This document shows, in pieces, positions 1,001 through 60,090 of a stretch of DNA of 63,394 bases. This DNA is from a virus. Lineage: Duplodnaviria; Caudoviricetes. Location of the stretch: positions 1-63,394 of the IMG/VR virus record IMGVR_UViG_3300030060_002858; one strand, given 5' to 3'. Made by a program: the position numbers and the translations under genes. The first letter of the stretch is position 1, and each line of letters begins with the position of its first letter. The notes under the pieces were generated by a model that saw nothing but the letters and a program-made list of their open reading frames with translations, was not told the origin of the DNA and ran no database searches.

Positions 1001-1202
1001 TAATCTATACGAAATTACTCGTAGAGAGTATGAAGTTAGATTGCCTGATGAAACTCTATTGGAGATTACTGTTGATGAGCATAACTTCACTGCGTTTTAT
1101 CAAAACAAAGAACATGGAGTTTTTTGGGATGAAGTAGTACCCGCTTCTCCTTTGGAAGTACTAGCTAAGCTTATTCTTAAGGAGACTGAAAATGGAAGAT
1201 AG
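990..1202 (+). CDS. hypothetical protein
   Basis: AAGGA RBS; overlapping gene packing. Confidence 0.55.
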   Translation: MMYDNLYEITRREYEVRLPDETLLEITVDEHNFTAFYQNKEHGVFWDEVVPASPLEVLAKLILKETENGR

Positions 1203-5852: not shown

Positions 5853-6140
5853 ATGGAACAAAAACACGATCAGTTAGCAGGTGGTAATTGGAATGCACAT
5901 AAACCACAAGTATGGAAAAAATTAAGAGAGAAGCATAAAAAACATAAAGCATCAGGCAAAGGTGGTCCTTCAATGCCTGAAAAACATGTGCCGTATGGCG
6001 GTGCAGGCAAGGGTGACATGAATAGAATTACTAACCAAACCAAATATTCTTTGGGCCTAGATCTTATACGCCTTGCAAAAGATAAGGGTAAAGATTCTGA
6101 AGAATATAAAGAAGCCCTTGAGGCTTGGAGGAACGCTTGA
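5853..6140 (+). CDS. hypothetical protein (GKGDxxR motif)
   Basis: GGAGG RBS; GAGKGDMNR. Confidence 0.6.
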   Translation: MEQKHDQLAGGNWNAHKPQVWKKLREKHKKHKASGKGGPSMPEKHVPYGGAGKGDMNRITNQTKYSLGLDLIRLAKDKGKDSEEYKEALEAWRNA

Positions 6141-44600: not shown

Positions 44601-45465
44601 TCTTAGTATTGAAGAGACTCTTGCTATGGCAGAAACTTTTGCTACTCAGTACGGAGAAATTACGCCAAGCACAGTTATGCAAACAGGAGATTCCTCTGCA
44701 AGATTAGTCTTTGCTTCAAATTCTATGGACTCAGACTTCCTTAGAAAATTAAATAATGTAGAAATTCCCTCTACAAGTTACTCGCAAAATAAAACTTCTG
44801 TTGCTATAACCGAAAAACTTAAACGATCTAAACCTAAGTATAGCTCCGCAAGTACGCTTCCTCATTTAGAAGAAACCTTCTTAATCCAAACAGACTCACA
44901 CGAAAACGGTTTTAAAATTAGAATGGCTCAGGATTGGGGAATGGATCAAGAAAGATACAATGATATTATGCAAGAAGCTATTGAGAGAGCAAAAGAAAAT
45001 AAACACGCATCTTTGCCTGATTTTCACTTTGATGTAATATACCAAGCATTAAGTTTAGCTGAAGGTCAAGAAACAGCAGTAGATATGGAGGTAAGACAGA
45101 AAAGAGGTTATTCTTATGGGGGATTGAACTTAGATATTATGGGAAGGAAATCTCTTGAAGAAAAATATACAGTAAGGGTAGCACCTGATATTGGACAGCT
45201 TGCTGGAATGGGATACGGTTCTAACTTTGCTTCTCAAGATATTAGTGTTGAAGAAACAAGAACAAGAGAGGTAGTATCTTTTCCAAAACTAATGGAAGCA
45301 TATAAAATATTTTCCCCAGATCTTTCTACCATGAGTCCTATGGGTCAAGCATCTCAATCTCACTCTGTAGGTTTCGACCTACAAGCAGGAACTTCTAGCG
45401 GAAAAAAAGCAGGTTTTAGAATTTCCTTACCTAACATCACCTTTAAAGGAGACATCATTAAATGA
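41695..45465 (+). CDS. large putative internal virion protein (1256 aa)
   Basis: GGAGG RBS; large helical protein directly before the giant gene. Confidence 0.6.
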   Translation: MTYSFRTPEQEQQLQIDLANAQARASVNRKNKQLEDRRGFTANMVELENKKTLRKKKFEEALGKPQGKRYKDIEELYTFLESEYTSEGPEDTVDIVSLDNLRPQLNSTINDLIPTTAPSIFSPTGFRRYENVSFPDAMSFAGENARALISNQAIAELEFEEFIWEQGVSERIKKFRSWEKTSREITSSTKKGNPFDMSLVFADMVLSSIVDDPREFTEEELRAEIETNPVTYSELNLLFNKKIMGSDLLDRSTTFRTAKDSTSVLAAVVLKEFAEKQKDQRLEEISFGQPSRSEDVFGGRDYDPKTGMFYGMNSWVWSGEDNFFKTSIADFERRQDTFRRNMSQVAIDGMIEEEMFLETLETNYKRAKEFIAGTARRVATVFEDSNKKQKARELSRVMQGNLFEIATDAATIKPGETGPEVQLKLGSIEATFDFLIEQEKSGVQTKEEHPKVYELFEKEGILAASEENLTLIERLERSKKFFVDNVVFKFNRMMETMTTPEGRYKVTMINQFKEFVDPSINTFQGVMKKVYTAIYDSDPNLNYYEKIKIMKLYSTGRSAFKKMSSVDENRSAMEKRILEITSPPTGTPPASSVTPLSVFERATKVELGDPARAAEFRLGIITDYKNRMIKNFVNRSGVTENQAVAAINNAVKIDTTGGVPTAYIDYDAVSPLELPSIVEVILNEMETYNVVGIPPILAGLGQQVREGLAIFGTEIDVNTEEGKAAALKGFRTVTALHILFGESGQLREDVVKQILGVSDQKYKGIRNVMAIIKSIHGDTAFGDLSNFYNLQDENQQLVTSERFQIEFQSIARQMLAGLAYAGSDFNLVDGQVSSAIQDLANGSAFLGLGTGLDEESALTDSINKTVGNTGRTIRQNIRRKMQMVFGLPEMATTEESEEVFRPIATRLGTILGLDVAAIEEANYEYINDSEYPMEDLTYILFRELTSNGHVQQKLANYMSARMSVRTAIPLSIEETLAMAETFATQYGEITPSTVMQTGDSSARLVFASNSMDSDFLRKLNNVEIPSTSYSQNKTSVAITEKLKRSKPKYSSASTLPHLEETFLIQTDSHENGFKIRMAQDWGMDQERYNDIMQEAIERAKENKHASLPDFHFDVIYQALSLAEGQETAVDMEVRQKRGYSYGGLNLDIMGRKSLEEKYTVRVAPDIGQLAGMGYGSNFASQDISVEETRTREVVSFPKLMEAYKIFSPDLSTMSPMGQASQSHSVGFDLQAGTSSGKKAGFRISLPNITFKGDIIK

Positions 45466-48400
45466 CAACTCAGGGTATTAATAAGTGGGCAACAGAACCA
45501 CTTCCTTTTTATATGGATAATCAAGAGGAGATGAGAGAATCAGTAGGGCAGTATAACGATTTTGTTCAAGGTTTAAACCCTTTAACAGACGGCGATAATG
45601 CTCTAAATGTTCCTGATCAATTAGTTGTTGACTTAAATACCCAAGAACTAGTTAGAGGTAATTACGGTATTACAGAAGCTATGGCTCTTATGTCAGCTAG
45701 AGGATACTTTGGTGGTATGTTTGAAGACAATCAATATCAACAAAAGTATTCTGCTAATATGCAGCTAGGCATGTACAGGGGTGACAAGTATAAAGAAGGG
45801 GATCTTTTAAAGTTTGGAGCAGACGAAGAAAAACTACTAAGATACTACGCTAAAAAAAGTCCTTGGAACCTTTCAAGACTTTCGGATCCTTTTATAGACG
45901 AGACATTAGATGGCGTAGAAGATATGTGGGACGCTCCTATTTTAAATAACCTTAATGATTCTCCTAATGATTTAATGGAAGCAGAAGCTCCTCCCGATTG
46001 GTCTCCCCAAGAAGCATTAAAGGTTTTGCAATTAAGAGATCCAGAAATGTATGCCGTATATGCTAATAGTTTAGGTGCTTCAAACTTAGAGCAAATTGTA
46101 GGTGAGGCTAAAAACCCATATGATTTTTTCTATACATTAACTGATACGATTCAAACAGCAGCTTTAAATACTACCATTGCAAAGTGGTACGAAGATGCTT
46201 CTAATACAGAGATTGCTTTAGAGTACGCTAGAAACTTTATTATAGAAGGAATTGTTAATGATCCAGACCTCGCAGCAAGCTTAGGAATAACAGCAGGACT
46301 TACTACTATCGGTAGTATTGCCGGTTTAAAGGCTGGTGTTATTGCAACTCTAGCCTATAAAATACCTAAAACTTTATACCAAGGTGTTAAGTATGTTAAG
46401 TTTATAAACATGATTCGCAAAGCAGCTACCACCACCATTAGGTACATGCCTGAAAATATCGGACCTACCTTGATTCAAAAAATCCCAGCCATGAAAAATT
46501 TCAGTAGAGGAGGATTTGTACAAAAGCATTTAATTGCTAATAGAATCGGTGACGCAGGAGAAGGACTTGTAACTGGTGGTTTAGCTGAAGCAGGAAACCA
46601 GTGGAGACAGTCTACTGCTGGAGTAATTGATGAGTTTTCTTATGGCGGCATTTTTAAAGAGGCACTATTTGAAGCAGCCCTATCTCCGGCAATTAACCCT
46701 GCTATTGGGGGTATTTATAGTTTAGGCGGAGGTGCAGTAAACCTTTCCTATATGGTTTCAGATAGTGTTGCTGCAAAGGTTATTGGAGAAAAAGGACACA
46801 AAGCATTTAGTAGATTTATTGATACTACCAAGAAATACCTTAATGCAGATGACGCAATAAAAAGATTAGAAAATGCACAACTATCTTTAGAGTTATCTTC
46901 TCAAGTAAATGATCTTACTTTAGAAGGAACAGAAGTAGAAATTCAAGACGATGAGGCTAAACCAGATAGACCAGATGGAATCCTTAGCATTATACTTGGT
47001 GCTATTTGGGATCAAACTGGACTAAGTAAAGGAGACTTCCTTACTACGGTAAAAGAAATACTAGCAGATTTCCAAGCAGAAGCAGCCGATCCTAGCCACC
47101 CAAGAAATAAACTAGGAGTAGATCAAGAAATTTTACTTTCAGAGATTGCACAAGAAGTTGTTAATAGAAATAGAGATGTAATTTTAGAAGCCAATGACGG
47201 AGATACTTCGTCCTTTGAAAAGATTTTGGGATGGACTCAACATCACTTAAGACTGGCTAGCGATGCTAAAAAAGAAGGAAAGACTTATAAAGAGTATACA
47301 GAAAAAATTATTGCTGATAATGAAGAGTGGAAACTTCTTGCGCCTCAAGTATTAGAAGCAGTCAAAGAAAAGATGGGCGATAAGTTTGACTCTAGTACTA
47401 CAGAAGAAAAACTAGACGTAGCCTTAGAATACATGCAAGAAACAATTCTTAAACAACAACAAGCTATTCGAGATTTAGATACATCTACTAAAGATAAAGA
47501 AGAAACAGCTGATGGTTTAGAAGAAGAACTAGAGGCAGCAGAACCTAAACCTGATCCTAAACCAGAAGACGCTCCTACTGGAGGAGAGCCAAAGGGAGAG
47601 GATGATAAACCAAAAAGAAAACCACCTCCGGGTGACGGTCCTATCGAAAGAAGAGCAGAATTAATTGAAAGATTAAAAAGAATGAAAGAAAGAGCTGAGA
47701 AGGCAAAGGCAGAAATTCAAGAAAAACTAGATAAGGGATTCAAGGGAGTAAATAGAAAAACAAAAGAAAATATTGTAGAGCTTGGTAGAAAGATTGATGA
47801 GGAGCTAGCTTTTGTTGAAGGAGAACTAGAGTCTTTCTTAGAAACTCATGGATTAGAAGACGGTGAAGTTAAAGACTCAATTCAACTTATGAAAACTTTA
47901 GAGACTGAGTTAAATGTTCTAAAAGAAACTCTTTCTAAGGATATTACTGATACAAAGGATGGTATACTATTTGGTTTTGTTCGGTTAAATAAACTAAGGG
48001 CTGCTAGAGAAAAAGCGGGTCTTCTTTTATTCAGAGATCTTAATCTAGAAAATTCTAAAAGAACAGAAGAAGGTAAGCCTGAGCTATCAAAATTACCTTG
48101 GGATAAAACACAAGAAGATACTAGAGAAGCTTGGAAAGAGCTAGCTGAACTAACAAAGGGAGATGAAAGTAAAGCAGCACAGAGAATTAGGCAGTTTGTA
48201 AATGACTTAGAAAGCGGAAAAGAAGAAGGTATTACAATGGGCGGTGTTAAAAATACTTTTACAAACTATATGAATATGCTCGGTACAGTTATGAAAAAAC
48301 ATGAGGAAAGATATAATAAGAGAGAAGATTACAAGAAACATGTGAGTCTATTTAAACAGTACAAAGCAGCTAGAAAGAACTATCAAAGGCTAATGTCTTC

Positions 48401-51400
48401 TATCTATAGATCAGAAACATTAAAAGATATTCAACAGTTTAATGCTATTCAATTACAACAAACAGGGCTAAGAGAAAAGAAAGAGCAAGAGTCTGTATTA
48501 AATGCTAGAAGGGCTTTATTCAATGAGTTCATTGCAGAAAAAGAAGCTAGTGGCGAAGATATTACGATGGAAGAATTTTTAAACTTTTTACATCCTTATT
48601 CAGAACAAGCTCAAACAGAAGCAGCGGCTATTGAACGAGATGCTAGCAAAGGAAAAGAAACTCTTACCATTGAAGAAGCGAAAAGAATTGAAGGCAAGGA
48701 ATATCAATCTGTAAAAGATCAACTTAAGTATTTGTCTATTGGTAAACTTTCCGGAATTAATAAGGGTGGTAGGTTTAAATATGTTCGGGGTAATTGGGAA
48801 CACCAGCATAGTGATTCTGATATTCTAGGAACATCTTATGATCCTGAGTTTGTTCTTAATGAATCAAACTACGGTAAAGAATTAGATACTGATGTAGTAT
48901 TTACCAGAGATTTAAGATCCGATCTAGAAGCTTGGATTGAACTAGAGCAAAAGATTTTAGCTATTGCAAGTCATACAGATCCATCTAAAGGTATTGCTGC
49001 TTGGAGAATTCACGCTGCATTGCCTCCTTACTTTAGAGATTTCTTGGGATTAGGTCCTTATGTGGTGTTTGGTAGAGGAAATATCCTTGGTGCTGAAAAC
49101 TCTGCTTTGATGCCTACTGAAGCTTTAGACCATAACTCGTTAGACCTTACCGATGAAAAAAGTATATCAGAACTTCAAAGATATCAACATCTATTAAGAT
49201 ACGATCCTCAAAAAATCTTGGCTATTATTAGAGCATGGAAAGACCGTGGACTAGCTAAAATTGATGGATGGGAAGCTAGAGAAACATCTTTTATTTTAGA
49301 CGAGCTTTCAAAAGAAATGCAAAACGAAGGAGACCCTAACTCTGCTGCTAACTTATTCTATACTCAAAAACTTTTAGAAAGAGTTCACAATCAATCTAGA
49401 GCTATTAATATGGCGAACTGGACAAAACGCCAAGGAGAAGGTGGCGGTTATATTATAGCCGTTGATCCAGATACTGGATTCCCTACGGAGTTTACCAACA
49501 GTGCTGGAACTTATAAAAGAGAAGCTCTATACCACGCAAAAGAAAGACTACAGTTTCTATTTGGCACCAGAAGATTTACAGAGCTACAACAAGTAGCTAA
49601 ATCTCTAGGGTTACTAACAGAAATTAGTCGAACAAAAGAAGACGGAAGAACAGAAATTATTATACGAGATAGAGAAGGCAATGTAAGAGCAGATGTAGTT
49701 GAGTATCTTACAGAACAAATTGGAGAGCAAACTGATATTAACATTACTGATTTAGGAAATGGTAACGAAGACTATGCATCAGCTCAAATCGCAGGCTACG
49801 GTATAGTAGACTTTATGAGTCAAAAACCAATGCCAGCTGTCCAACAAAGAAGTGTTGTTCTAGATAAAGATGGTAATACTGTTCCTACTGAAAGCAATGA
49901 AGATAGTGAAACCGCTTCTTTACCTACTGATATCCGCCTTCCTCAAGAAGGAGAAACAAACGCAGCTATGCCCATTCCTGTAATGAAACTAGCTGAGTTA
50001 ATTCAAAACTTTAAGGCTAGAGAAAGAATGCGGTATATCTTAAGTAAGGATACTTTTACGGACGCAGAAAGAGCTGCCTATAAAGAATGGGTAGAAGCTA
50101 AATGGTCTGATGTTTTAGCTGGAATGGATCCTGATCCTACCGGAGAAAACGCACAGATCTTTGTAGTTCCCCAAATAGTAGGCGGATCTCTACATGAAGC
50201 TGTAATGTCCCGAGCCGAGGCAAAAGAATTCTTACTAGAACTTATGTTAGATATCCCAAGAAACGCAGAAGCATTTATTCACGACCAAGTTACAAGAAAA
50301 CGCGGAAGTGCTTTAATGTTTAACGAGGGTCAGGGAGAGAAGGAAATTAATGTTTTAGACAAAGAAGGAAACATTGTAACAAAGAAAATTAAAGACCTCA
50401 ATGTTGAGGGTGGTCTTATGTTTGACCTCAGCCACGGGGATCACATGCTTGTTCCTCTAGGACGAATTGGTGAAATCATGGCAATTGAAGCAATGGGTCC
50501 ACAGTTTGCTGGGCTTACCGATATTGTAATAGACAAGGTTGTGCAATACTCAGATGCAGCAAGAAAAGAAGGAACACTAGATGAACTGCTAGCTTTTGAA
50601 AACTGGAGTGACAGAACAGCTAGCGGTGTATTTGAAATGAAACTACTTTCTTTAGCAGGAGATGCAGACTCTACTATTGAAATTGAAGTAGATGGTAAAA
50701 CTAAAAAAGTAAATGCACCTAAACTTTTAGATATGATTAGAGATGGAGTTATAGAACCGGGAACAAAAGCAGAGTCAGATTTTTATCTATCAACAGCAAT
50801 TATTGCGGCACCTTTATTTGCTATGGGTAAGAAAGGCGGACTACAAACTCTATTTGATGTTATTAATAAAAACGATATTCGTAGTGTAAAAGATCTTCAA
50901 GAAAAAGAAGCTGGTCTATCTGAAGGGGATAAAAAGAAGTTAAAACTATTGCGAGAAATATTTAAAGTTCCTGTTATGAGAAGAATTTATGGCGGATCTA
51001 AACCAAACTTTGATGTAGAATTTTCAGAGGGAGGCAAGGGATACGAGGCTTTAAAGAAAGCAGGCATGACTTCTGAAGAAGATATTGCTGCTCTTAAAAA
51101 AGTTTTATTCTCTGGAAACGGAGGAGCTACGCACATCTCTAAGACTATTCTTATTGACTATGCATTGGGAGTTAACGATAGAACTAAATATCTTGTACAA
51201 AAGTATTTGGGTATTGATCAAACCAGAAGCGTACCATTGTTAGACACATGGAAAGAATTAGTTAAACTAGATAATAAAGCCTTGTCTGCTGAGTTAGAAA
51301 GATCTCAAACCCACATCAGACTATTAGAAGATTCTTTAAGACAGAAATATGAGATTGATAATCCTGCTGACTTAACATTTGAACAATGGAAAAAAACAAA

Positions 51401-54400
51401 AGGATATAACAAGAGGTTTGAAAAAGCCAAGGCTTACCTAGAAGAACAAGAAAAAGCAAGTAATCCTATTCACCCCGGTACTGTAGCCTATGAAACATTT
51501 AAAAAAATACTTCAAACCACAGATCAACTAAGTGCTGAAAGTATTGGATACTTTAGAGCACTAAATATTCTTAACTCGCAAGAGTATAGGTTAAACGTAG
51601 ATCGACTACAGTTTGTAGCTCAAAGAGTATTGGGGTTAACAGACTTTAGTGTGCAAGACTTTATGGGATTTGAGCAGCACGCCTTGTATCAGCTTATGTT
51701 GCCCACAGCAACTTCAGGAAGAACATATCCGTTAAACACAACCGGACTAAATCCTTTAGGCATCTCTTTAGAAAGAGTAGCAAGAATGCAACCCTTTGTA
51801 AAGGATGGAGTTAGGTACAATGACTTTATTGATTATGTAGAAAGAAACCCCGGACTAGATGAAGCTGAGTTTAAAAAGGATCTAGAAGATTACCTAACCA
51901 ATCACGACGGAGCAGATGCTTTCGGTGCTTTTGATCTTGAAGATCCATCTCTTAGGAAGTTTGAAACTAGAGAAGAGGCTGAAGCTGCTCTTGAAGATCT
52001 AATGATTAAACAAGAGATGATGCTATGGTCTAGTTATGATAAGCCACCTAAGGAAGTATTTAAAGACTATACCGCAGAAGACAGTGATGAAGGATTCTTT
52101 AATAATCTTCTTACACAGTGGCATCAGCACTCAGAGCAAAGGCACTTGACGCTAAAAGAAGAAATAGCTTTCGAACAAGCCGAAGCAGATAGAATGATAG
52201 CAGACGGCAAGAGACCCACAGATAGTCCAGTTCTACAATTAAAAAATAAAGCTGGTGGGTTGGTCAATAAGAAACTAGTTGAAGCATCTGAAGGAGAGTT
52301 TAGATATCTTCCTTATCATGTTTCTGAAAGAAATCCTTCTTCGGTAATGATTCACACAGCAGGTCAAAGAGGACCACTATCTATGCGTCCTCGATTTAAA
52401 GAAAGACAGTACTATGATATGGGACTATTAAGTTTACAGAAGAGGCACGTTCAAGATAGGATTACTAAAGCAATGGGGCCTATTGAAACTATTAGAACAA
52501 ACGCAGATTCTCTAACAGAAGAAGATGCTATGATTAGCGGAGTTAACATAGGACACGCTCCAGCTTGGGATTCTAACAAACTGCCTCAGGTACTTCCTAC
52601 GCTTCCTAGAGCCATTGCCGCAGATCTTAGAACAGACATGGGTCAGAGAGCAGCTAAGATTTATTATGAAGTTTCTATCTGGGCTGAAGAAAGAGGACTC
52701 GCAGATAAACTAAAAGAAGATCCAGAAAACTTTGTACGTTTTTATATTATTAGAGAAATTGAAGAAGAGCGCAAGAGACAACTTAGAAGGACCAGAGAGA
52801 GTAATATTACAAATGAGAATGATATTATTGCAGCAAGAAATAAATGGATTGGAGGACTGCACGATATTAGTAGATACTCTAGAGATTTGAAAGATCCAGA
52901 AGGTAGGCGAGGTCTTCAATTGTTTACAGAAAGACAATCCTTTGCCGCTGTAAATCCAGCTGAAGAAGGCGAACTATACATGGATCTTCTAGTTAATGTA
53001 GCCGACGAAAACAATCCAGATGGTTTCTTGTTTACTAGAAGTCTTTTAGATGACGCATTTAAATTAGGGCCAGTACCTACGGGTGAAAGAATTATTATCA
53101 CGCCAGAAAATGTATCAGATGAAAAGACAATGGAAGAGATATTTGAATTTAAGGATCTTAACTTAGAATCTTGGGCAGTACAAAATGCTGACTTTAATAA
53201 ATTCTTAGCGGCTCAGTTATTTACAGAAGCAATCGGCAAAGCCATGCTAGAGTTTGAAGGCGGTAAGTATAAGAGTGTAGCGTTTACTCCAGATCAATGG
53301 GAATTTGCAATAGATCCAGAAGACCGCAAACCTTTAATTGCACTAGCAAAACAAATGGTCATGGAAATGCCTTCGTTTGAACTTACAGTAGGAATTGAAG
53401 AGTCGCTATACAACGACGATAGTAAGATTTCAACTTATAGGATGACCATTAACAGAGAAGGCGTTGCTCCTGAAAAAGGAAAGGAACGAGATAAGAAGGC
53501 CGTACCAACTCAACAAAGAAATGTGTTTGGGGCAGCAACGGGCTTTGGTATGCAGGTGATGACTAGAACTAAGTTAAAATCTAAAAAGGCAAAGCTTGCT
53601 CTTACACCAGAGCACAGAATGCAGTTATTCTCAATACTAGAAAACGCTCAAACCATGCAGGGAATTACTTTAAGCAATTGGTTAAATAAAGGATTAGGCG
53701 TGAAGTTAACAGAGGACGGTCAGATTGTTAGAGCGGTTCCTATCCAAGATAGAGTAGCAGATGCAATGGGCTATACTGCTCGTCCTATTAGAGACGCAGC
53801 TATTAACGAAGCTGAGGCCCTAAGAAGAGTTAGTTCGGTAGACGGTGAAAGTAGTGTTAGAATGATTGACGACCCTCTTACCAGCGTAAGGGGAGCTAGA
53901 GTTAATGTAGTAGATTTAGATTACTACGCTAGGGATAACTCTTCTTGGGGAGACGGGTCTATTAATACTGCTTGGCTTGAGTCTTACGTTAGTCCTATTA
54001 CTAAACTAATTCATATGCTAGATAGATCGGGAATTCAAGCCGGTAGTGAATTGGCAGATCTTAAGTTAGAACTACAGTCTTTAATTGCTTTAACAAGAGA
54101 ACAGGACAATATGTCTAGTGTTGTTGTAAGATTAATTGCATTAAAACTAGAAGATCCTTCTTTAGATTTTAGAAAAAATAAAATCAAAATGTTTTTTACA
54201 GACGCAGAAAGAAACGGAGATGACTTTAATACTGCTATTAACAAAGCTGACTCAATTATTTTAAAAATTAAAAAACACACATCAGACTATGGAGTTACTA
54301 GAAAACTTCCCGGATATTACGAAGCTAGGCAGTTTATCACAACTCAAGAATATAGTCCTGCTAACTTTGAAGAAACACTTCTTGCTTTTAAAAAGTATCT

Positions 54401-57400
54401 AGGAGATCCTACATTTGTTGGAACAGATGATCAACTAGAAGATGCACTTAGATTTGCTTTTAGAGATTTAGACGAAGAAAGATTAGATATTGACGAAGCT
54501 ATGAGTTTCTTTGGAGGAGAAAGAATTGCTTCAGAATCTTTAGAATTATTTACTAAAGGAACTGAAGAAGAGCTTTTAACATCACTAGGGCCAGCAATTG
54601 AAGACAATCCTGAGTTAGGATTAATGGTCAGAGGTCCAATAAGAAACTTAAATAAATTAATTAGAGAACAAAAAGTTCTTTCAGAAGAAGCTGGGGTAGC
54701 TATTAAGGCTATGCTATTTAGAGCAAATCAGTTAAATCCAGATATACTTCTAAATCTAAAGTTTGAATTTATTACAGAGCGATTAGAGGGAGTAGCCCAA
54801 GCAGAAAGAAAGGGAGATAATTTTACAATTAGACTAGGCTCTAACTTTAAAACTATTACAAAAGATAATCCTTTAACTGCAATTCAAATAGTTGCTCACG
54901 AACTAGCTCACGTTGCTAGGCTAAAATTTATTGCAGATAACTCTAGAGAATATAATGGGTTATTAGGACTTTGGCAAAGCGACGAAGGCAGGGACATGTT
55001 ACGAAAGGCTGTTCAAGCTTTTCATGGTGGAGTATTTACTTCTGAAGCTAAAAAAGAATATGAAAGATATTTAAATAATCCTGAAGAATTTATCGCAGGA
55101 TTTATGTCATACTTTCTTTTAGGAGACACAAATGTTGAGATTAGAGATTTAACTAAAAAACAAAAGGGAATGTTTAATGAGTTAACTTCTATTGTAAAAA
55201 GAATGATGACTTATGTTTCTAATATTTTAAACAATCTTCAAAATGCGTTTTACACTGGAAATGAAAAGTTTGATAAAGAGGTAAGAGCACTTGCTCTTCG
55301 AGTATGGGGACATGATGCAGCGACAGGAAAGCCTGCCCTAAGACAACTTGATTCTGGTCAAGTTGCAGATGCTACATATGGATGGAGTCAAAGATTTAAA
55401 GATACTAAAGAATTTGTAGTAGACCCTGATAAAGATTTACAAATAATTAAAGGACACAAAGAATTAGCTAGACTAAACTCAAAGGCTGAACTTACAGAAG
55501 AAGAAATTCTTACTAAACATAAAATCAATGACTTCTTATACGCAGAAGGTACTTATGCTCAAGAAAACTTTGGTTTGAATGGCCTATCACGCTCTGATTA
55601 TTTAGCAACTCTTCAACAGTTAAAAGAAAAATATCCATCTAAAAAACGAAGTGATTTAGAAAATGATTCTAGAAATAACGATGAATCTATTATTGATATA
55701 CGAGAGATACTTGCTCAAGGTACTAATAAAGAAAAGGCCACTGCTTTAGCTTACCTTATGGATGCTGTATCAAAAACATACGGAGATCCTATAGCTAAAG
55801 GTCTAGGTGCCATTGGAAACAGTATAGCAGATAGCATTCCTAATGTTAAGCAAGCAGCGGCAAAACAAGCATTATTTAACTTACTACTAGGTGATACCGG
55901 ATCGGGAGAAACATTTGGTGCTGAGTTCTTACTGCCTATTCTTATTACGCAAATGCTAGATGATAATATTGTTACTGCTACGGGTAATTATCTAAACACA
56001 GCAGGAACTCCTTCTGTTAGAACAAATATTCAAAAGCTAGAGACGTTCTCAACAAGTATTAGAACCAGTAAAAATCAAATTGCAGCTGCTCTTAGAGGTA
56101 TTACAGATGTAGCAAAGAGAACAGTATTTGAGTCGTTTGTTAGTGACACCGATAAAAAAGTTATGGCTAAGTTAGACAAACAGCTTATTACAAGTGTAAC
56201 TAAATTAAACGAAGGAGAGGCAGAGTTTACTTTCGATCTTTCAGAAGATGCATTAGGGGTAGCACTAAATGATAAACAAAAAGCAGTTATTCTAAAAGCT
56301 CTTGGAGAAATTAAAAATACGTTTACTCAAATGGCAGAAGATAATATTAGAGACGGAATATCTATTGGTGAATTTGGCGAAGGTTTTACGCAAGTAGTTC
56401 CATATCGTTTAGGCAATTCATTGCGTGCCGAAGATGTAAGAGCACCAGAGTTTAAAGATACAATGACTAGCTTAATTCAAAAAAGATTATCTCAAGGAAT
56501 AGAAAGCGGTCTTCTAGATGGAACAGTAATGGCTGCGGTAGGACTTATCCCGCACTTTGGAAATAACACAGCAGCAAGAGCAGATCTAGAAAGACTTAAT
56601 GCTCAGTATCCTCAATTGGTAGATGCTATTTTAGCCGAAGCAGTTAAACAAGAGGGAGATACTGAAAGACAAACTAAAGAAAAAGTTAACCTATTAAAAG
56701 CAAAACTAAATGATACCGCTAATGTAGATTCTTTTGTAGAGTTACAAGTAGGTACTGGGCGTTTCTTAAACAAACTTGCACAGGGAACAATCACTTTAGA
56801 TAGCATATTTACTAGGGCTAGTCAACGTATTGCTTTTGTAACAGAGTATAAGACTGCTGTAGAAAATGCTAACAAAAGATCAGCAGATGCTCGAAATAGA
56901 TTAGATGCTTTAACAAAAGAAAGTGGAGACATTCGCTCTAATACATTCTTTAGTCCTACCACAAAAGATACTCCTGTAGCAGCCTTTGATAGAGCAGCTG
57001 ATAACCCAATTGAATTTATTTTTAGAAACTTTCACAAGAGAGCTTCTAGGGGAGCGTACTATCCTAACGATAACTGGGCAATCCCTAGTGTAAGAGAAGC
57101 ACTAGAAGCTAATGAAGATATCCAAAAATATTTTGTAACAGACATGGCAGCATTAGCTGAAAATGCAAAACAAGGTCTATTTAATGATATTGCTGAAAAG
57201 AAAATGTTTAGAGAGTTCGGAGTACACGGAAACATTGAGCATGTATTAACTCTTATTAGTAGCGTAGCCTTTAGCGATTATTCAGTAATGGCTCCAGACG
57301 GAACGTCAATAGAAGGTCAACGAGTAAAACAAGTTGTAGAAGTATTAAGAAACAAACATAATGCTTTAAGAAATATTATTGAAAAACCAGAAGGAACTAA

Positions 57401-59141
57401 TACGGGTTCAGTAGAAAGTTCTATTGTAGATTATGCTAATGCTGCAACAAGAATTGCATATGGAGGCAACCTATTCCTTGCTACTACTATTGTAGAAAAC
57501 GGATACAGTGCAGTAGACGAACTAATCGGAAGAGGAAATATTGTAGGATTTTTAAGAAGTGCTTTAGCTCCCTTTAGTCAACTTACAAATAGAACAGAAA
57601 GAGCAAGAGTATTAAAAGATTTTGCTTACCTAATTGAGTCAATGACACAAGGATTTTTACCTGAATACGAAAGACCGTTAGGTACAGAAGGAGATAGTAC
57701 GGTATTAAAAGCACTCAAGGGCTTGGGTTCTGCAAACATGAGGCTTGCTAAGTGGCAACTTAAAAACATTACCGCAGCCCGTGCAATAAATATTAGATCT
57801 TTTATTCAGTCATATTTAAAACCAAACAAAGATGGAACGTCTAAGTTAAGTGAATTAGCTAGATTGTTAGAAGAATCTAATCTTTCTAAATTACCAATTG
57901 AAGAACAAGAACCAGCTTTAAAAGGAATACTAAGAAAGGCAAAGATTGGAACAAACAACTTACCAATAATTTCTTACCTTATTAAAGCAGGATTATTAGA
58001 ACCTACTAGATTAAGTATGCTTTTAGAAATGATGCCTGCCGAAGGACGTTACAGTCCATTTGAAATGACTCAGGAATTGTTTACCACTAAATCTCCTAGA
58101 ACTAATGCAAAAGAGTTTCAACAAAAACTTGACATTATTACAGCCCTTAAAAATATTGAAAGAAGATATGTAGAAGAAGCTATTCTAGCTCCCAATGCAT
58201 TTGATACTGCTACTGGTCCTAGAGGAACATTTGAACAAATCTTTGAAATCTATCGTAGATATCCCGTTCTCTTTGCAAGCCAACAAGTAATTAGAAAGTC
58301 AAGCAGGGTTGGAGTAGTTAGAGCAGGTTTTAGTTTAACTTCCTTGATTCTTTTAGATATGCTTTATATGGCTGCTCTATCAATGGCAGCAGGTAAACCA
58401 CTTGAAGATGTTGTAAAGGATTATGAAGAAGCTCCTCTAGCTAGTGCAGGCAAGCTTCTTTTAAGAACTCCAATCTTTGGTAGATGGTTAGCTATGGTTG
58501 GTCCAGTTTTAGCTAAAGGTCTAGAAGCTATTGAAAAAGGTCGTATGCCATCTGGATATGAACTTACTCAAGCTTTCCAGTCTGGTTCTGGTTTTATTCC
58601 TGTAGCAGCTTTAGGAGCAGCAGCAGGTTCTCTTCTAACAACATTCCAAACTATAGGGGGCGTATTTGGACTTAATGAGATGCCTAGAGGACAAGAACTT
58701 GTTAACTCTTTACGATTAATTCCAGCAGGAGACGCAGCAATTAGACTGGCTATCTTCTCCTTAGCGGGAGATAGTATTGAAAGGAAGAAAAGACGAGGAC
58801 CAAGCGGAGCAGGATCTTATGGAGGACAGCAGCCAGTCACAGGGCTTCACTATGGAATGCACAGAAACGATGCTGCTTTTACTTGGGAAAGCATGTACAA
58901 GGACATGATGACTCCTATTCTAAATGGCGAGTTACCTCAGGTTGTAAAAGAGTATTATAAAGACATAGAACAAATGGATGCAATGCAAGAGCTGGGAGCC
59001 ACGCCCGCCTCTCCACAACCCGCCGCGCCGCCCGCAAAACCCGCGCCGTCGCAGCCAGAGATCACTACACCTAAAGTAGATCCTGTAGACTCTATACTAA
59101 ATCAAGGACCTACCAAGGCACCTGATACTTTACTCGAATAG
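45462..59141 (+). CDS. giant (4559 aa) polyvalent virion protein with T7/N4-like RNAP motifs and a zincin peptidase motif
   Basis: AAGGAG RBS; uninterrupted 13.7-kb ORF; DRTASG, SDFY, REIFKVPVMRRIYG, SGRTYPLNTTGLNPLG and HELAH..EEFIA motifs. Confidence 0.7.
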   Translation: MTTQGINKWATEPLPFYMDNQEEMRESVGQYNDFVQGLNPLTDGDNALNVPDQLVVDLNTQELVRGNYGITEAMALMSARGYFGGMFEDNQYQQKYSANMQLGMYRGDKYKEGDLLKFGADEEKLLRYYAKKSPWNLSRLSDPFIDETLDGVEDMWDAPILNNLNDSPNDLMEAEAPPDWSPQEALKVLQLRDPEMYAVYANSLGASNLEQIVGEAKNPYDFFYTLTDTIQTAALNTTIAKWYEDASNTEIALEYARNFIIEGIVNDPDLAASLGITAGLTTIGSIAGLKAGVIATLAYKIPKTLYQGVKYVKFINMIRKAATTTIRYMPENIGPTLIQKIPAMKNFSRGGFVQKHLIANRIGDAGEGLVTGGLAEAGNQWRQSTAGVIDEFSYGGIFKEALFEAALSPAINPAIGGIYSLGGGAVNLSYMVSDSVAAKVIGEKGHKAFSRFIDTTKKYLNADDAIKRLENAQLSLELSSQVNDLTLEGTEVEIQDDEAKPDRPDGILSIILGAIWDQTGLSKGDFLTTVKEILADFQAEAADPSHPRNKLGVDQEILLSEIAQEVVNRNRDVILEANDGDTSSFEKILGWTQHHLRLASDAKKEGKTYKEYTEKIIADNEEWKLLAPQVLEAVKEKMGDKFDSSTTEEKLDVALEYMQETILKQQQAIRDLDTSTKDKEETADGLEEELEAAEPKPDPKPEDAPTGGEPKGEDDKPKRKPPPGDGPIERRAELIERLKRMKERAEKAKAEIQEKLDKGFKGVNRKTKENIVELGRKIDEELAFVEGELESFLETHGLEDGEVKDSIQLMKTLETELNVLKETLSKDITDTKDGILFGFVRLNKLRAAREKAGLLLFRDLNLENSKRTEEGKPELSKLPWDKTQEDTREAWKELAELTKGDESKAAQRIRQFVNDLESGKEEGITMGGVKNTFTNYMNMLGTVMKKHEERYNKREDYKKHVSLFKQYKAARKNYQRLMSSIYRSETLKDIQQFNAIQLQQTGLREKKEQESVLNARRALFNEFIAEKEASGEDITMEEFLNFLHPYSEQAQTEAAAIERDASKGKETLTIEEAKRIEGKEYQSVKDQLKYLSIGKLSGINKGGRFKYVRGNWEHQHSDSDILGTSYDPEFVLNESNYGKELDTDVVFTRDLRSDLEAWIELEQKILAIASHTDPSKGIAAWRIHAALPPYFRDFLGLGPYVVFGRGNILGAENSALMPTEALDHNSLDLTDEKSISELQRYQHLLRYDPQKILAIIRAWKDRGLAKIDGWEARETSFILDELSKEMQNEGDPNSAANLFYTQKLLERVHNQSRAINMANWTKRQGEGGGYIIAVDPDTGFPTEFTNSAGTYKREALYHAKERLQFLFGTRRFTELQQVAKSLGLLTEISRTKEDGRTEIIIRDREGNVRADVVEYLTEQIGEQTDINITDLGNGNEDYASAQIAGYGIVDFMSQKPMPAVQQRSVVLDKDGNTVPTESNEDSETASLPTDIRLPQEGETNAAMPIPVMKLAELIQNFKARERMRYILSKDTFTDAERAAYKEWVEAKWSDVLAGMDPDPTGENAQIFVVPQIVGGSLHEAVMSRAEAKEFLLELMLDIPRNAEAFIHDQVTRKRGSALMFNEGQGEKEINVLDKEGNIVTKKIKDLNVEGGLMFDLSHGDHMLVPLGRIGEIMAIEAMGPQFAGLTDIVIDKVVQYSDAARKEGTLDELLAFENWSDRTASGVFEMKLLSLAGDADSTIEIEVDGKTKKVNAPKLLDMIRDGVIEPGTKAESDFYLSTAIIAAPLFAMGKKGGLQTLFDVINKNDIRSVKDLQEKEAGLSEGDKKKLKLLREIFKVPVMRRIYGGSKPNFDVEFSEGGKGYEALKKAGMTSEEDIAALKKVLFSGNGGATHISKTILIDYALGVNDRTKYLVQKYLGIDQTRSVPLLDTWKELVKLDNKALSAELERSQTHIRLLEDSLRQKYEIDNPADLTFEQWKKTKGYNKRFEKAKAYLEEQEKASNPIHPGTVAYETFKKILQTTDQLSAESIGYFRALNILNSQEYRLNVDRLQFVAQRVLGLTDFSVQDFMGFEQHALYQLMLPTATSGRTYPLNTTGLNPLGISLERVARMQPFVKDGVRYNDFIDYVERNPGLDEAEFKKDLEDYLTNHDGADAFGAFDLEDPSLRKFETREEAEAALEDLMIKQEMMLWSSYDKPPKEVFKDYTAEDSDEGFFNNLLTQWHQHSEQRHLTLKEEIAFEQAEADRMIADGKRPTDSPVLQLKNKAGGLVNKKLVEASEGEFRYLPYHVSERNPSSVMIHTAGQRGPLSMRPRFKERQYYDMGLLSLQKRHVQDRITKAMGPIETIRTNADSLTEEDAMISGVNIGHAPAWDSNKLPQVLPTLPRAIAADLRTDMGQRAAKIYYEVSIWAEERGLADKLKEDPENFVRFYIIREIEEERKRQLRRTRESNITNENDIIAARNKWIGGLHDISRYSRDLKDPEGRRGLQLFTERQSFAAVNPAEEGELYMDLLVNVADENNPDGFLFTRSLLDDAFKLGPVPTGERIIITPENVSDEKTMEEIFEFKDLNLESWAVQNADFNKFLAAQLFTEAIGKAMLEFEGGKYKSVAFTPDQWEFAIDPEDRKPLIALAKQMVMEMPSFELTVGIEESLYNDDSKISTYRMTINREGVAPEKGKERDKKAVPTQQRNVFGAATGFGMQVMTRTKLKSKKAKLALTPEHRMQLFSILENAQTMQGITLSNWLNKGLGVKLTEDGQIVRAVPIQDRVADAMGYTARPIRDAAINEAEALRRVSSVDGESSVRMIDDPLTSVRGARVNVVDLDYYARDNSSWGDGSINTAWLESYVSPITKLIHMLDRSGIQAGSELADLKLELQSLIALTREQDNMSSVVVRLIALKLEDPSLDFRKNKIKMFFTDAERNGDDFNTAINKADSIILKIKKHTSDYGVTRKLPGYYEARQFITTQEYSPANFEETLLAFKKYLGDPTFVGTDDQLEDALRFAFRDLDEERLDIDEAMSFFGGERIASESLELFTKGTEEELLTSLGPAIEDNPELGLMVRGPIRNLNKLIREQKVLSEEAGVAIKAMLFRANQLNPDILLNLKFEFITERLEGVAQAERKGDNFTIRLGSNFKTITKDNPLTAIQIVAHELAHVARLKFIADNSREYNGLLGLWQSDEGRDMLRKAVQAFHGGVFTSEAKKEYERYLNNPEEFIAGFMSYFLLGDTNVEIRDLTKKQKGMFNELTSIVKRMMTYVSNILNNLQNAFYTGNEKFDKEVRALALRVWGHDAATGKPALRQLDSGQVADATYGWSQRFKDTKEFVVDPDKDLQIIKGHKELARLNSKAELTEEEILTKHKINDFLYAEGTYAQENFGLNGLSRSDYLATLQQLKEKYPSKKRSDLENDSRNNDESIIDIREILAQGTNKEKATALAYLMDAVSKTYGDPIAKGLGAIGNSIADSIPNVKQAAAKQALFNLLLGDTGSGETFGAEFLLPILITQMLDDNIVTATGNYLNTAGTPSVRTNIQKLETFSTSIRTSKNQIAAALRGITDVAKRTVFESFVSDTDKKVMAKLDKQLITSVTKLNEGEAEFTFDLSEDALGVALNDKQKAVILKALGEIKNTFTQMAEDNIRDGISIGEFGEGFTQVVPYRLGNSLRAEDVRAPEFKDTMTSLIQKRLSQGIESGLLDGTVMAAVGLIPHFGNNTAARADLERLNAQYPQLVDAILAEAVKQEGDTERQTKEKVNLLKAKLNDTANVDSFVELQVGTGRFLNKLAQGTITLDSIFTRASQRIAFVTEYKTAVENANKRSADARNRLDALTKESGDIRSNTFFSPTTKDTPVAAFDRAADNPIEFIFRNFHKRASRGAYYPNDNWAIPSVREALEANEDIQKYFVTDMAALAENAKQGLFNDIAEKKMFREFGVHGNIEHVLTLISSVAFSDYSVMAPDGTSIEGQRVKQVVEVLRNKHNALRNIIEKPEGTNTGSVESSIVDYANAATRIAYGGNLFLATTIVENGYSAVDELIGRGNIVGFLRSALAPFSQLTNRTERARVLKDFAYLIESMTQGFLPEYERPLGTEGDSTVLKALKGLGSANMRLAKWQLKNITAARAINIRSFIQSYLKPNKDGTSKLSELARLLEESNLSKLPIEEQEPALKGILRKAKIGTNNLPIISYLIKAGLLEPTRLSMLLEMMPAEGRYSPFEMTQELFTTKSPRTNAKEFQQKLDIITALKNIERRYVEEAILAPNAFDTATGPRGTFEQIFEIYRRYPVLFASQQVIRKSSRVGVVRAGFSLTSLILLDMLYMAALSMAAGKPLEDVVKDYEEAPLASAGKLLLRTPIFGRWLAMVGPVLAKGLEAIEKGRMPSGYELTQAFQSGSGFIPVAALGAAAGSLLTTFQTIGGVFGLNEMPRGQELVNSLRLIPAGDAAIRLAIFSLAGDSIERKKRRGPSGAGSYGGQQPVTGLHYGMHRNDAAFTWESMYKDMMTPILNGELPQVVKEYYKDIEQMDAMQELGATPASPQPAAPPAKPAPSQPEITTPKVDPVDSILNQGPTKAPDTLLE

Positions 59142-59970: not shown

Positions 59971-60090
59971 ATCGACTAGGGGGTCACGAATTTATCTGAG
60001 GTGATGTATAGTATTGCGCTGTTGCAGTACCCCCCGTAACCCTGTTCGAAAGGATTTGGAATTATTGTTCTTAGCTGGATACTGTTCGTC

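What the first reader, a model, noticed from the sequence alone, without database searches (positions are those of the whole stretch)
51540..51765. RNAP motifs in the giant protein are out of canonical order (possible permutation or tandem relic)
Seen: FRALNILNSQEYRLN followed ~50 aa later by TATSGRTYPLNTTGLNPLG (G2086-R2087). These resemble the T7 AINIAQNTAWKIN helix and the DxxGR block (T7 DWRGRVYAVSMFNPQG; mitochondrial RNAP DFRGRTYP..NHLG). In every T7-family RNAP I know, this block lies before motifs A and B, but here it lies ~240 aa after motif B. An IHD also sits ~110 aa before motif A. Inference: a permuted polymerase architecture, or two fused partial RNAP domains. A chance match cannot be excluded.
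Basis: partly seen in the sequence, partly recalled or inferred. Interest (0 to 1): 0.75.

Follow-up and report, generated by a model that had tools for sequence, protein, structure and literature searches.

The report
Rearranged polymerase-like core in giant phage protein
A 4559-residue protein that a marine T7-like phage probably injects into its host carries the hallmark residues of a T7/N4-type RNA polymerase, but in an order not seen in known members of that family.

Summary
FRALNILNSQEYRLN (aa 2031-2045) and TATSGRTYPLN (G2086-R2087) lie in the 4559-aa ORF 45462-59141. They are conserved: N2035 in 39 of 40 and R2087 in 44 of 44 aligned homologues, but G2086 in only 6 of 44. Against a T7-like RNAP profile they align to T7 316-336 and 424-441 (R2087 on R425). 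Both scores exceed all 65 control windows taken from the rest of the protein. Upstream lie an invariant RxxxK-x7-Y motif B (aa 1831-1843), a motif-A-like Asp (D1717) and an IHD hairpin (D1608, aligned to T7 D812). The order is therefore C, A, B, then helix plus Arg block. It is shared by all 24 giant homologues. An AlphaFold model (pLDDT 80) places these residues in the expected kinds of secondary structure. Its best non-helical-bundle structural matches are T7 RNAP (Z 5.6) and human mitochondrial RNAP (Z 6.3). Those matches are weak. No Pfam, PHROG or PDB sequence hit exists, no coordinates were available, and packing could not be tested. The gene sits where T7 gp16 and N4 vRNAP sit. Best reading (about 50%): an N4-style virion RNA polymerase with a rearranged core. 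No second A/B/C set was found, so a tandem relic is unsupported.

The parts
45462..59141 (+). Giant ORF (4559 aa). It is the last and largest gene of a block of unannotated ORFs that follows the large terminase gene, in the position of T7 gp16 / N4 vRNAP.
   Evidence: ORF list. Phage context by PHROGs. No Pfam, PHROG or PDB sequence match for the whole protein. 85 homologues found, 24 of them 3.3-5.7 kaa.
49023..52811 (+). Conserved central region, aa 1188-2450. aa 1556-2450 was modelled.
   Evidence: Profile search. AlphaFold2 with 54 sequences: pLDDT 80.4, pTM 0.74.
50271..50291 (+). Motif-C-like beta-hairpin, aa 1604-1610 (AFIHDQV), with invariant D1608.
   Evidence: D1608 in 43 of 43 rows and 24 of 24 giants. 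hhalign 1604-1610 to T7 808-814, with 0 of 200 shuffles reaching the score. D sits between strands 48-51 and 54-56 of the model. Not recovered with the N4-like profile.
50601..50660 (+). Motif-A-like element, aa 1714-1733 (NWSDRTASGVFEMKLLSLAG), with invariant D1717.
   Evidence: D1717 in 30 of 30 rows. S1721 is S in 26 and N in 4 of 30; G1722 in 22 of 30. This is the same D-x3-[S/N]-G pattern as T7 and N4 motif A. The model has a strand ending at D1717 followed by a helix. hhalign did not place it on motif A: score 13.8, reached by 37 of 200 shuffles.
50952..50999 (+). Motif B, aa 1831-1846 (REIFKVPVMRRIYGGS).
   Evidence: R1831 38 of 38, K1835 38 of 38, Y1843 39 of 40. Aligned residue for residue to T7 R627/K631/Y639 and to N4 R666/K670/Y678, and to the motif B stretch (aa 368-391) of the ORF612 family. 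Lies in the long helix 266-287 of the model.
51549..51611 (+). Helix aa 2030-2050 (YFRALNILNSQEYRLNVDRLQ), counterpart of T7 316-336.
   Evidence: N2035 in 39 of 40 rows. hhalign scores 23.0-24.0; 0 of 200 shuffles and 0 of 65 control windows reach them. The N4-like profile places it on 330-354. pLDDT 90-96.
51696..51782 (+). Arg block aa 2079-2107 (MLPTATSGRTYPLNTTGLNPLGISLERVA), counterpart of the T/DxxGR...NPQG block.
   Evidence: R2087 in 44 of 44 rows. hhalign 2086-2105 to T7 424-441; 0 of 200 shuffles and 0 of 65 control windows reach the score. R2087 lies just before strand 533-535 of the model.
6125..8581 (+). The phage's ordinary T7-like RNA polymerase (818 aa), in canonical motif order. 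Used as context.
   Evidence: PF00940 at 6.9e-81. phrog_414 at 3.9e-157.

Best explanation
Proposed function. The window is most of the genome of an uncultured marine T7-like podophage. Its giant protein occupies the place of the largest ejection protein (T7 gp16, N4 vRNAP). Its central region (about aa 1590-2110, within the conserved aa 1188-2450) is a very divergent derivative of the family-A / single-subunit RNA polymerase core. I propose that it is packaged in the capsid and ejected with the DNA. It would then act as a virion RNA polymerase for the first transcripts, and possibly for pulling the genome in, as N4 vRNAP does.

Inferred active site:
- Two invariant Asp residues: D1717 (end of a strand, motif A) and D1608 (tip of a hairpin, motif C type).
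- The motif B helix: R1831, K1835, Y1843.
- An Arg hairpin (R2087), preceded by the conserved helix with N2035.

The finding's segment is this last module. In known family-A enzymes it lies N-terminal to motif A. Here it is encoded after the fingers, and the motif-C-type hairpin is encoded before motif A. This order needs more than one circular permutation to derive from the T7 order.

Shown: the residues, their invariance, their order, their motif-level alignment to T7-like and N4-like profiles, and their predicted secondary structure.

Inferred: that they meet in one active site, that the enzyme makes RNA, and that the protein is in the virion.
For: 1. Invariant residues match the family-A catalytic set. 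Among 24 giants of 3.3-5.7 kaa: D1608, D1717, R1831, K1835 and Y1843 are 24 of 24; R2087 is 23 of 24; N2035 is 22 of 24.
2. Segment hhalign against a T7-like profile puts D1608 on D812, R1831/K1835/Y1843 on R627/K631/Y639, R2087 on R425, and aa 2031-2050 on T7 317-336. Shuffles reaching the score: 0, 6, 0 and 0 of 200.
3. Of 65 real control windows from the rest of the protein, 0 pair a conserved residue with a catalytic residue, against 3 of 5 test segments.
4. An N4-like vRNAP profile built from 8 sequences repeats the motif B, helix and NP(Q) placements. The ORF612 family repeats the motif B placement.
5. Positive control: N4-like against T7-like, which are known structural relatives, gives separate helix and motif C hits of only 26.1 and 24.5. 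Scores of this size are therefore what a true distant relative gives.
6. AlphaFold2 model: pLDDT 80.4, pTM 0.74. D1608 sits at a hairpin tip, D1717 at a strand end followed by a helix, and motif B in a 22-residue helix.
7. VIA-align against 48,161 chains: T7 RNAP 3e2e_A is rank 3 (Z 5.6, rmsd 3.7, 116 aligned, model 46..347 to T7 434..689). It is the first of the listed matches that does not fall mainly in the helical stretch, model residues 363-464.
8. Second look at 256 Foldseek candidates: human mitochondrial RNAP 9gzo_A is rank 1 (Z 6.3, rmsd 4.6, 117 aligned). Weaker matches are N4 RNAPII (Z 3.4-3.7) and Pol gamma (Z 3.4-3.5).
9. Position and build resemble N4 vRNAP. Passages of PMC13434306 call it analogous to T7 gp16 and describe a membrane-spanning NTD, an RNAP core and a large CTD.
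10. D1717-x3-S-G has Gly where T7 and N4 have Gly. From my recollection this fits RNA rather than DNA synthesis.
Against: - No sequence-library support. Pfam, PHROGs and PDB gave 0 relevant hits for the whole protein, for segments, and for 7 of 7 homologues scanned.
- hhalign of the 7-sequence profile against the phage's own RNAP and against N4 mini-vRNAP gave probabilities of 2.5% and 0.4% on irrelevant stretches.
- Every motif hit has hhalign probability under 10%. Noise hits elsewhere in the giant reach 21-22.
- The top whole-region hit (aa 1433-1450 to T7 652-669, score 23.6-23.9) maps to no known motif.
- Motif A was not recovered by either profile.
- Motif C was not recovered with the N4-like profile.
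- Putting the blocks into canonical order did not make hhalign chain them or raise any score.
- Foldseek against PDB and BFVD gave nothing at E <= 0.001.
- The VIA Z values of 5.6 and 6.3 are below the level (about 8) that the tool itself calls more than a common arrangement.
- I had no coordinates, so the spatial meeting of D1608, D1717 and R2087 is untested.
- The phage already has a normal T7-like RNAP and a second compact one, so the need for a third is not obvious.
Confidence: 0.5

Rival explanations
1. The region is a non-polymerase domain of an ejection protein (channel, scaffold or another enzyme). Its resemblance to polymerase motifs is chance or convergence on a few short conserved patches.
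For: All library searches are empty. Single hits are at noise level by hhalign's own statistics, and comparable scores of 21-22 occur elsewhere in the protein. Motif A is not detected. Structural Z values are only 5.6-6.3. The segments were chosen after the motifs had been seen.
Against: Four separate segments each place a family-invariant residue on the identical catalytic residue of T7 RNAP, whereas 0 of 65 control windows do so. Three unrelated templates (T7-like, N4-like, ORF612 family) agree on motif B, and two agree on the helix and Arg block. The only non-bundle structural matches are single-subunit RNAPs. The predicted secondary structure fits each motif.
Confidence: 0.22
2. The domain is polymerase-derived but is a relic or tandem remnant. 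Parts of two ancestral RNAP copies are fused, the enzyme is dead, and the block at aa 2030-2100 survives for a structural reason.
For: The non-canonical order is what partial duplication and loss could leave. The thumb between the helix and the Arg block is short: about 35 aa, against about 78 in T7, judged from the aligned ranges. The phage has two other RNAP genes.
Against: No second motif A/B/C set was found in aa 2100-3100, and no second helix/Arg block upstream. The complete catalytic set, including R2087 (44 of 44) and both Asp residues, is invariant across homologues as low as about 20% identical. That points to selection on function. The observed order would need pieces of three copies.
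Confidence: 0.12
3. The core is a polymerase in canonical topology and my assignments are wrong. The D1608 hairpin would be the positional homologue of the N-terminal Arg hairpin, and the R2087 hairpin the positional homologue of motif C. The key residues would have swapped between the two hairpins without any rearrangement of the chain.
For: The spacings fit the canonical layout. D1608 lies 109 aa before D1717 (T7 D421 to D537: 116). R2087 lies 252 aa after K1835 (N4 K670 to D951: 281). The sequential structural alignment to POLRMT runs from model 68 to 558, i.e. through the R2087 strand, against chain 856..1162.
Against: The local sequence of each hairpin matches the swapped motif, not the positional one. 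IHD matches T7 808-814. SxRxY...NPxG, preceded by the ALN-type helix, matches T7 316-336 plus 424-441 in the right internal order. The N4-like profile agrees for the helix and the NP(Q) part.
Confidence: 0.13

Closest known systems
Bacteriophage N4 virion RNA polymerase (gp50, Schitoviridae), a 3500-aa ejected single-subunit RNAP
   Same: It is a giant protein in the gp16-like ejection position, with a polymerase-type core in the middle flanked by large N- and C-terminal regions (passages of PMC13434306). Motif B has the same R-x3-K-x-P-x5-Y-G form. An NPQ follows the Arg.
   Different: N4 has the canonical order: Arg block (R424), A (D559), B (K670), C (D951). The giant has C-like, A-like, B, helix, Arg block. 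There is no detectable overall sequence similarity. The host phage is T7-like, not N4-like, and also carries a full T7-like RNAP.
T7 RNA polymerase / PF00940 single-subunit RNAPs, including mitochondrial POLRMT
   Same: The motif-level counterparts are T7 316-336, R425, R627/K631/Y639 and D812. These enzymes are the best non-bundle structural matches: Z 5.6 to T7 RNAP and Z 6.3 to POLRMT.
   Different: There is no PF00940 match. The motif order is different. The thumb is short. The domain is embedded in a 4559-aa protein.
Internally permuted palm of birnavirus and permutotetravirus RNA-dependent RNA polymerases (motif order C-A-B)
   Same: The motif-C-type hairpin is encoded upstream of motif A. 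This shows that such a rearrangement of a palm active site can work (PMC8310298 and PMC4666646; I saw only the search listing and the start of the abstracts).
   Different: That is an unrelated polymerase class: RdRp, RNA viruses, thumb C-terminal by default. This is an analogy only; no homology is claimed or tested.
T7 gp16 internal virion protein D (ejection protein)
   Same: It is likewise the largest ORF of a run of otherwise unannotated ORFs (39497-59141), and it follows a 1256-aa ORF. The analogy to the T7 gp14-16 block is by size and order only.
   Different: The giant is 3.5 times longer. No sequence match and no lytic transglycosylase domain were found.

Membership tests
T7-like single-subunit RNA polymerase (Pfam PF00940) | Match to the family HMM above its gathering score | tested here: not met
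   0 families for the whole protein at E <= 10. 0 for aa 1556-2450. 0 of 7 homologues hit any RNAP family. The phage's own RNAP scores 6.9e-81 in the same library.
T7-like single-subunit RNA polymerase (Pfam PF00940) | Motif B: R-x3-K-x7-Y-G on a long helix | tested here: met
   R1831 38 of 38, K1835 38 of 38, Y1843 39 of 40. Exact residue pairing with T7 and N4. Helix 266-287 of the model.
T7-like single-subunit RNA polymerase (Pfam PF00940) | Motif A: catalytic Asp at the end of a beta-strand, D-x3-[S/N]-G | tested here: inconclusive
   D1717 is 30 of 30. The pattern and the strand-then-helix geometry are present. Neither profile aligned it to motif A.
T7-like single-subunit RNA polymerase (Pfam PF00940) | Motif C: beta-hairpin with catalytic Asp, located after motif B | tested here: not met
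   A motif-C-type hairpin exists (D1608 aligned to T7 D812), but it lies 109 aa before motif A. No invariant acidic residue in a hairpin follows motif B.
T7-like single-subunit RNA polymerase (Pfam PF00940) | Arg hairpin (T/DxxGR) and the preceding helix lie N-terminal to motif A | tested here: not met
   The block is present and conserved, but it lies 244-252 aa after motif B. No such block was found upstream.
T7-like single-subunit RNA polymerase (Pfam PF00940) | Shared fold of palm and fingers | tested here: inconclusive
   VIA Z 5.6 to 3e2e_A and Z 6.3 to 9gzo_A. Foldseek found nothing at E <= 0.001.
N4-like virion RNA polymerase (Schitoviridae gp50) | Sequence similarity to the mini-vRNAP core (phrog_2166 or tblastn) | tested here: not met
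   No PHROG hit. tblastn against 50,697 phage records found no match. hhalign probability 0.4%. Only motif-level hits with an 8-sequence profile.
N4-like virion RNA polymerase (Schitoviridae gp50) | Giant ejection protein at the gp16-like position with a central polymerase core | tested here: inconclusive
   Size, position and a conserved central region fit. Presence in the virion and ejection cannot be tested here.
N4-like virion RNA polymerase (Schitoviridae gp50) | DNA-dependent RNA synthesis | not testable with these tools
   Needs a biochemical assay.
Permuted-palm RdRp (Birnaviridae, Permutotetraviridae) | Homology to viral RdRp motifs A-G | not tested
   Considered only as a functional analogy for C-A-B order (listing only).

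The most novel reading that the evidence does not exclude
An abundant, uncultured lineage of marine T7-like phages with about 57-82 kb contigs packages a 3.3-5.7 kaa ejection protein. Its core would be the first family-A (T7/N4/mitochondrial type) polymerase with an internally rearranged active site: motif C hairpin, then A, then B, then thumb helix and Arg hairpin. The same phages also carry two canonical single-subunit RNAP genes, which would make this a three-polymerase transcription programme that evolved independently of N4.
Probability: 0.4. Interest if true: 0.85.

Novelty: new variant of a known kind. Interest (0 to 1): 0.72.

Why it matters
If the reading holds, three things follow.

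1. The family-A polymerase core tolerates a non-cyclic reordering of its modules. So far this is documented only for viral RdRps. It would bear on the proposal in PMC2579912 (passages seen) that thumb, Arg hairpin, palm and fingers began as separable units.
2. Virion-delivered transcription would extend from N4-like phages to a T7-like lineage.
3. A conserved domain of more than 1000 residues in many marine phage genomes would be shown to be invisible to standard annotation.

It would also offer a new, compact test case for how an ejected, unfolded polymerase refolds in the host.

Tried and rejected
Searches that found nothing:
- Whole-protein searches of PDB sequences, Pfam and PHROGs.
- The 7-sequence profile against PDB sequences.
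- tblastn of aa 1501-2700 against 50,697 phage records.
- Pfam on four segments: only sub-threshold noise, the best being Peptidase_M91 at E 0.096 at the HExxH site.
- Pfam and PHROGs on all 7 members of A2: no polymerase family.
- ESM Atlas, twice: no usable hit.

Structure:
- The first AlphaFold2 run (aa 1188-2350, 7 sequences) was unusable: pLDDT 49.7, pTM 0.27.
- Foldseek against PDB and BFVD found no match at E <= 0.001. Family-A polymerases and N4-like vRNAPs appeared only among rows with E 0.4-4.
- Complex prediction with aa 1590-1905 and aa 2020-2165 as two chains: no verdict, score 0.00. This says nothing either way.

Profile comparisons that did not help:
- hhalign of A2 against the phage's own RNAP and against N4 mini-vRNAP as single sequences: no meaningful hit.
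- Reordering the three blocks into all six orders, including the canonical one. hhalign never chained the motifs and the scores did not change, so this test gave no extra support.
- Search for a second motif set elsewhere in the giant: only unrelated noise hits of 14-22.

Collection scans and context:
- The single-sequence query in viral contigs and A2 in metagenome contigs found no relative. A2 in viral contigs gave the same three contigs again.
- Direct repeats over the whole window showed no promoter-like family.
- Sigma-70-like sites in 1-6300 were not enriched: 10 found against 15.9 +/- 4.3 expected.

Literature: four searches found no paper on a permuted single-subunit RNAP or on a polymerase-like giant protein in T7-like phages. 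Their terms were:
- 'virion RNA polymerase', 'T7-like', 'marine', 'giant'
- 'internal virion protein', 'single-subunit RNA polymerase', 'permuted'
- 'vRNAP', 'T7-like RNA polymerase', 'uncultured', 'ejection protein'
- 'permuted', 'palm', 'motif C', 'single-subunit RNA polymerase'
Subscription journals are not covered. No supplementary files were consulted.

Rejected idea: that D2149/D2152 (NHDGAD) is motif C. D2149 is D in only 23 of 32 rows and D2152 in 16 of 37.
Full report
THE LOCUS

The window carries almost only + strand genes at 35-43% G+C. PHROG and Pfam scans identify these genes:
- T7-like RNA polymerase, 6125-8581 (PF00940 at 6.9e-81; phrog_414 at 3.9e-157)
- primase/helicase
- family-A DNA polymerase
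- ribonucleotide reductase
- portal-type connector
- major capsid protein
- tail tube proteins
- a 1289-aa fibre / beta-helix protein
- large terminase, 37839-39533

After the terminase comes a run of unannotated ORFs of 273, 336, 129 and 1256 aa. The last ORF of the run is 45462-59141, at 4559 aa. This is the place and size order of the ejection proteins of podophages.

The phage's RNAP is at most 28.2% identical to that of any of 2728 matching cultured phage records. The lineage is therefore uncultured. Many of the closest proteins come from marine metagenome sources such as Tara.

THE OBSERVATION

The giant protein has no hit in Pfam, PHROGs or PDB sequences. It does have homologues:
- 4 full-length relatives at 37-53% identity in the word-indexed search.
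- 3 IMG/VR contigs.
- 85 representatives at E <= 0.001 in the exhaustive profile search. Together with the earlier hits, 24 of the proteins held are 3.3-5.7 kaa.

In the alignment of all of these, the finding's segment holds two of the most conserved residues of the whole protein: N2035 (39 of 40) and R2087 (44 of 44). G2086 is not conserved (6 of 44). S2085 (34 of 44), Y2089 (31 of 44), N2097 (24 of 42), Q2099 (25 of 42) and G2100 (37 of 43) are conserved to varying degrees. The family consensus is therefore lp...s.R.y.....g.n.qG..lerva. This compares with the T7 stretch MDWRGRVYAVSMFNPQG and the N4 stretch TRVGRMQMLGKYNPQS, both read from the records.

THE OTHER MOTIFS

The columns kept in at least 90% of rows across aa 1188-2350 include:
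- D1608 (43 of 43)
- D1717 (30 of 30)
- D1773 (33 of 34)
- R1831 (38 of 38)
- K1835 (38 of 38)
- Y1843 (39 of 40)
The rest are mostly Gly and Pro, plus E1676, E2289 and one Phe and one Arg.

In the 24 giants, D1608, D1717, R1831, K1835 and Y1843 are each 24 of 24.

R1831-x3-K1835-x7-Y1843-G has exactly the spacing of T7 R627/K631/Y639 and of N4 R666/K670/Y678. It also shares the Pro two residues after the Lys with N4. D1717-R-x-A-S-G repeats the D-x3-[S/N]-G of T7 (DGSCSG) and N4 (DGVTNG). D1608 sits in sfihDq, like the T7 stretch LIHDSFG.

IS THIS MORE THAN CHANCE?

Whole-region hhalign against a profile of T7 plus 40 marine T7-like RNAPs gave four weak local hits. Three of them were:
- aa 2030-2049 to T7 316-335
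- aa 2075-2106 to T7 414-442
- aa 1827-1851 to T7 623-647

Run segment by segment, the top hits were as follows:

| Segment | Aligned to T7 | Key pairing | Score |
|---|---|---|---|
| aa 1604-1610 | 808-814 | D1608 on D812 | 20.8 |
| aa 1831-1844 | 627-640 | R1831/K1835/Y1843 on R627/K631/Y639 | 17.8 |
| aa 2031-2050 | 317-336 | none | 23.0 |
| aa 2086-2105 | 424-441 | R2087 on R425 | 20.5 |
| motif A segment (aa 1700-1760) | wrong place | none | 13.8 |

Column shuffles reached these scores in 0, 6, 0, 0 and 37 of 200 trials respectively.

Column shuffling is a lenient control, so I also used 65 real 60-aa windows from the rest of the giant alignment:
- Their top scores had median 12.6 and maximum 21.4.
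- The two segments of the finding scored 24.0 and 22.7 on that alignment.
- None of the 65 windows paired a conserved residue with the identical catalytic residue of T7. Three of the five test segments did.

A second, independent profile of 8 N4-like vRNAP cores repeated three placements:
- Motif B: score 20.6, against a control maximum of 19.2, with three exact pairs.
- The helix, on N4 330-354.
- The NP(Q) part, on N4 432-442.

The ORF612 family repeated motif B.

As a positive control, N4-like against T7-like, which are proven structural relatives, gave only 26.1 for the helix and 24.5 for motif C when these stood alone. It gave 50.2 for the collinear Arg-A-B chain. The giant's scores are thus of the size expected for a true but very distant relative whose motifs cannot be chained.

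RESULTS AGAINST THIS READING
- Each hit is insignificant by hhalign's own probability.
- Noise hits of 21-22 occur elsewhere in the protein.
- The best whole-region hit (aa 1433-1450 to T7 652-669) corresponds to nothing known.
- Motif A was never recovered by either profile.
- Motif C was not recovered with the N4-like profile.
- Putting the blocks in canonical order did not produce a chained alignment.

STRUCTURE

With 54 sequences, AlphaFold2 gave a confident model of aa 1556-2450: pLDDT 80.4 and pTM 0.74. Its secondary structure fits each motif:
- D1608 lies between strands 48-51 and 54-56, at a hairpin tip.
- D1717 ends strand 160-162, which is followed by helix 166-178.
- Motif B lies in helix 266-287.
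- N2035 lies in helix 474-482 (pLDDT 90-96).
- R2087 precedes strand 533-535.

Foldseek found nothing significant in PDB or BFVD.

VIA-align against 48,161 chains ranked T7 RNAP (3e2e_A) third: Z 5.6, rmsd 3.7, 116 residues, model 46..347 on T7 434..689. The two matches above it, and most of those listed below, cover the helical stretch at model residues 363-464.

Among 256 Foldseek candidates, human mitochondrial RNAP (9gzo_A) ranked first: Z 6.3, rmsd 4.6, 117 residues, model 68..558 on chain 856..1162. N4 RNAPII (Z 3.4-3.7) and Pol gamma (Z 3.4-3.5) ranked lower.

These Z values are below the level the tool calls trustworthy. What counts is that the only non-bundle matches belong to the family the motifs point to.

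ORDER OF THE MODULES

The canonical order is helix, thumb, Arg hairpin, A, B, C (read for T7 and N4). The giant has C-type hairpin (1608), A (1717), B (1831-1843), helix (2030-2050), Arg hairpin (2087).

Treated as three blocks (X = helix plus Arg; AB; C), the canonical cyclic order is X-AB-C and the giant's is C-AB-X. That is the other cyclic order, so one circular permutation cannot produce it.

No second A/B/C set follows the Arg block and no second helix/Arg block precedes motif A. The tandem-relic reading therefore has no positive support.

Two papers give context. Passages of PMC2579912 describe the family-A core as a thumb, an Arg-bearing beta-hairpin, an RRM-like palm with two Asp residues, and inserted fingers. 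They suggest these were once separate units. A palm with motif C ahead of motif A is known from birnavirus and permutotetravirus RdRps (PMC8310298 and PMC4666646; listing and abstract starts only).

MECHANISM PROPOSED

By position, size and three-part build, the giant resembles N4 vRNAP. Passages of PMC13434306 describe N4 vRNAP as the gp16 analogue of N4, with a membrane-spanning NTD, an RNAP core and a large CTD. It is ejected to transcribe the early genes.

I therefore propose a virion-delivered RNA polymerase. The Gly at D1717+5 matches T7 and N4. From my recollection of the steric-gate literature, this favours ribonucleotides. This step, packaging in the virion, and catalysis itself are all inferred.

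VERDICT

The permuted-architecture interpretation is supported at motif level only. It still needs a non-sequential structural comparison and an activity assay.

My odds are:
- about 0.5 for a functional, rearranged polymerase core
- 0.22 for a non-polymerase domain
- about 0.13 for a canonical topology with swapped residues
- about 0.12 for a relic

Noticed in passing
window 60000-63394 (ORF 60973-62811, + strand): A high-G+C island (50-63% against about 38% elsewhere) encodes a 612-aa compact T7-like RNAP with motifs in canonical order. The helix is near aa 141, DEAGR at 215, the motif-A-like stretch at 314, motif B at 372 and IHD at 564. It hits phrog_2051 at 1.6e-8 and has no Pfam hit. Homologues of the ORF lie in L001 (65% identity) and L002 (35%), and a similar G+C rise is seen in all three related contigs, L001-L003. 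The antisense 623-aa ORF 60946-62817 is probably a by-product of the high G+C.
   Followed up: partly
window 54897-54911 (aa 3146-3150 of the giant) and aa 3209: An HExxH motif (HELAH) with a downstream Glu is nearly invariant in 24 giants: H3146 24 of 24, E3147 23 of 24, H3150 22 of 24, E3209 23 of 24. This suggests a zincin-type metallopeptidase domain in the C-terminal part. Pfam gives only a sub-threshold Peptidase_M91 hint at E 0.096.
   Followed up: partly
window 2478-4335: Five tRNA genes lie in the early region upstream of the RNAP gene: Lys-ttt, Ile-tat, Met-cat, Arg-tct and Leu-taa.
   Followed up: no
window 37839-45465: The large terminase gene (37839-39533) lies upstream of the putative ejection-protein run, unlike the T7 gene order (T7 order recalled, not from a call). 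The 1256-aa ORF 41695-45465 just before the giant has no family hit, but it is conserved at about 25% identity in L001 and L002 and may be the gp15-like tunnel protein.
   Followed up: partly
window 49758-49811 (aa 1433-1450 of the giant): The GNGxxxY...G.G.VD patch, with near-invariant G1432 and G1434, gave the single best whole-region hhalign hit to the T7-like profile (T7 652-669, score 23.6-23.9). It maps to no known polymerase motif and is unexplained.
   Followed up: no
proteins P0065, P0067, P0069 (about 4000 aa, from the profile search): This more distant subgroup of giant proteins matched the profile mainly over positions 107-404. In the full-length alignment it still keeps D1608, D1717, R1831, K1835 and Y1843. 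The two scanned (P0065, P0069) gave no meaningful PHROG hit, only one at E 0.0072 to a tape-measure family.
   Followed up: partly
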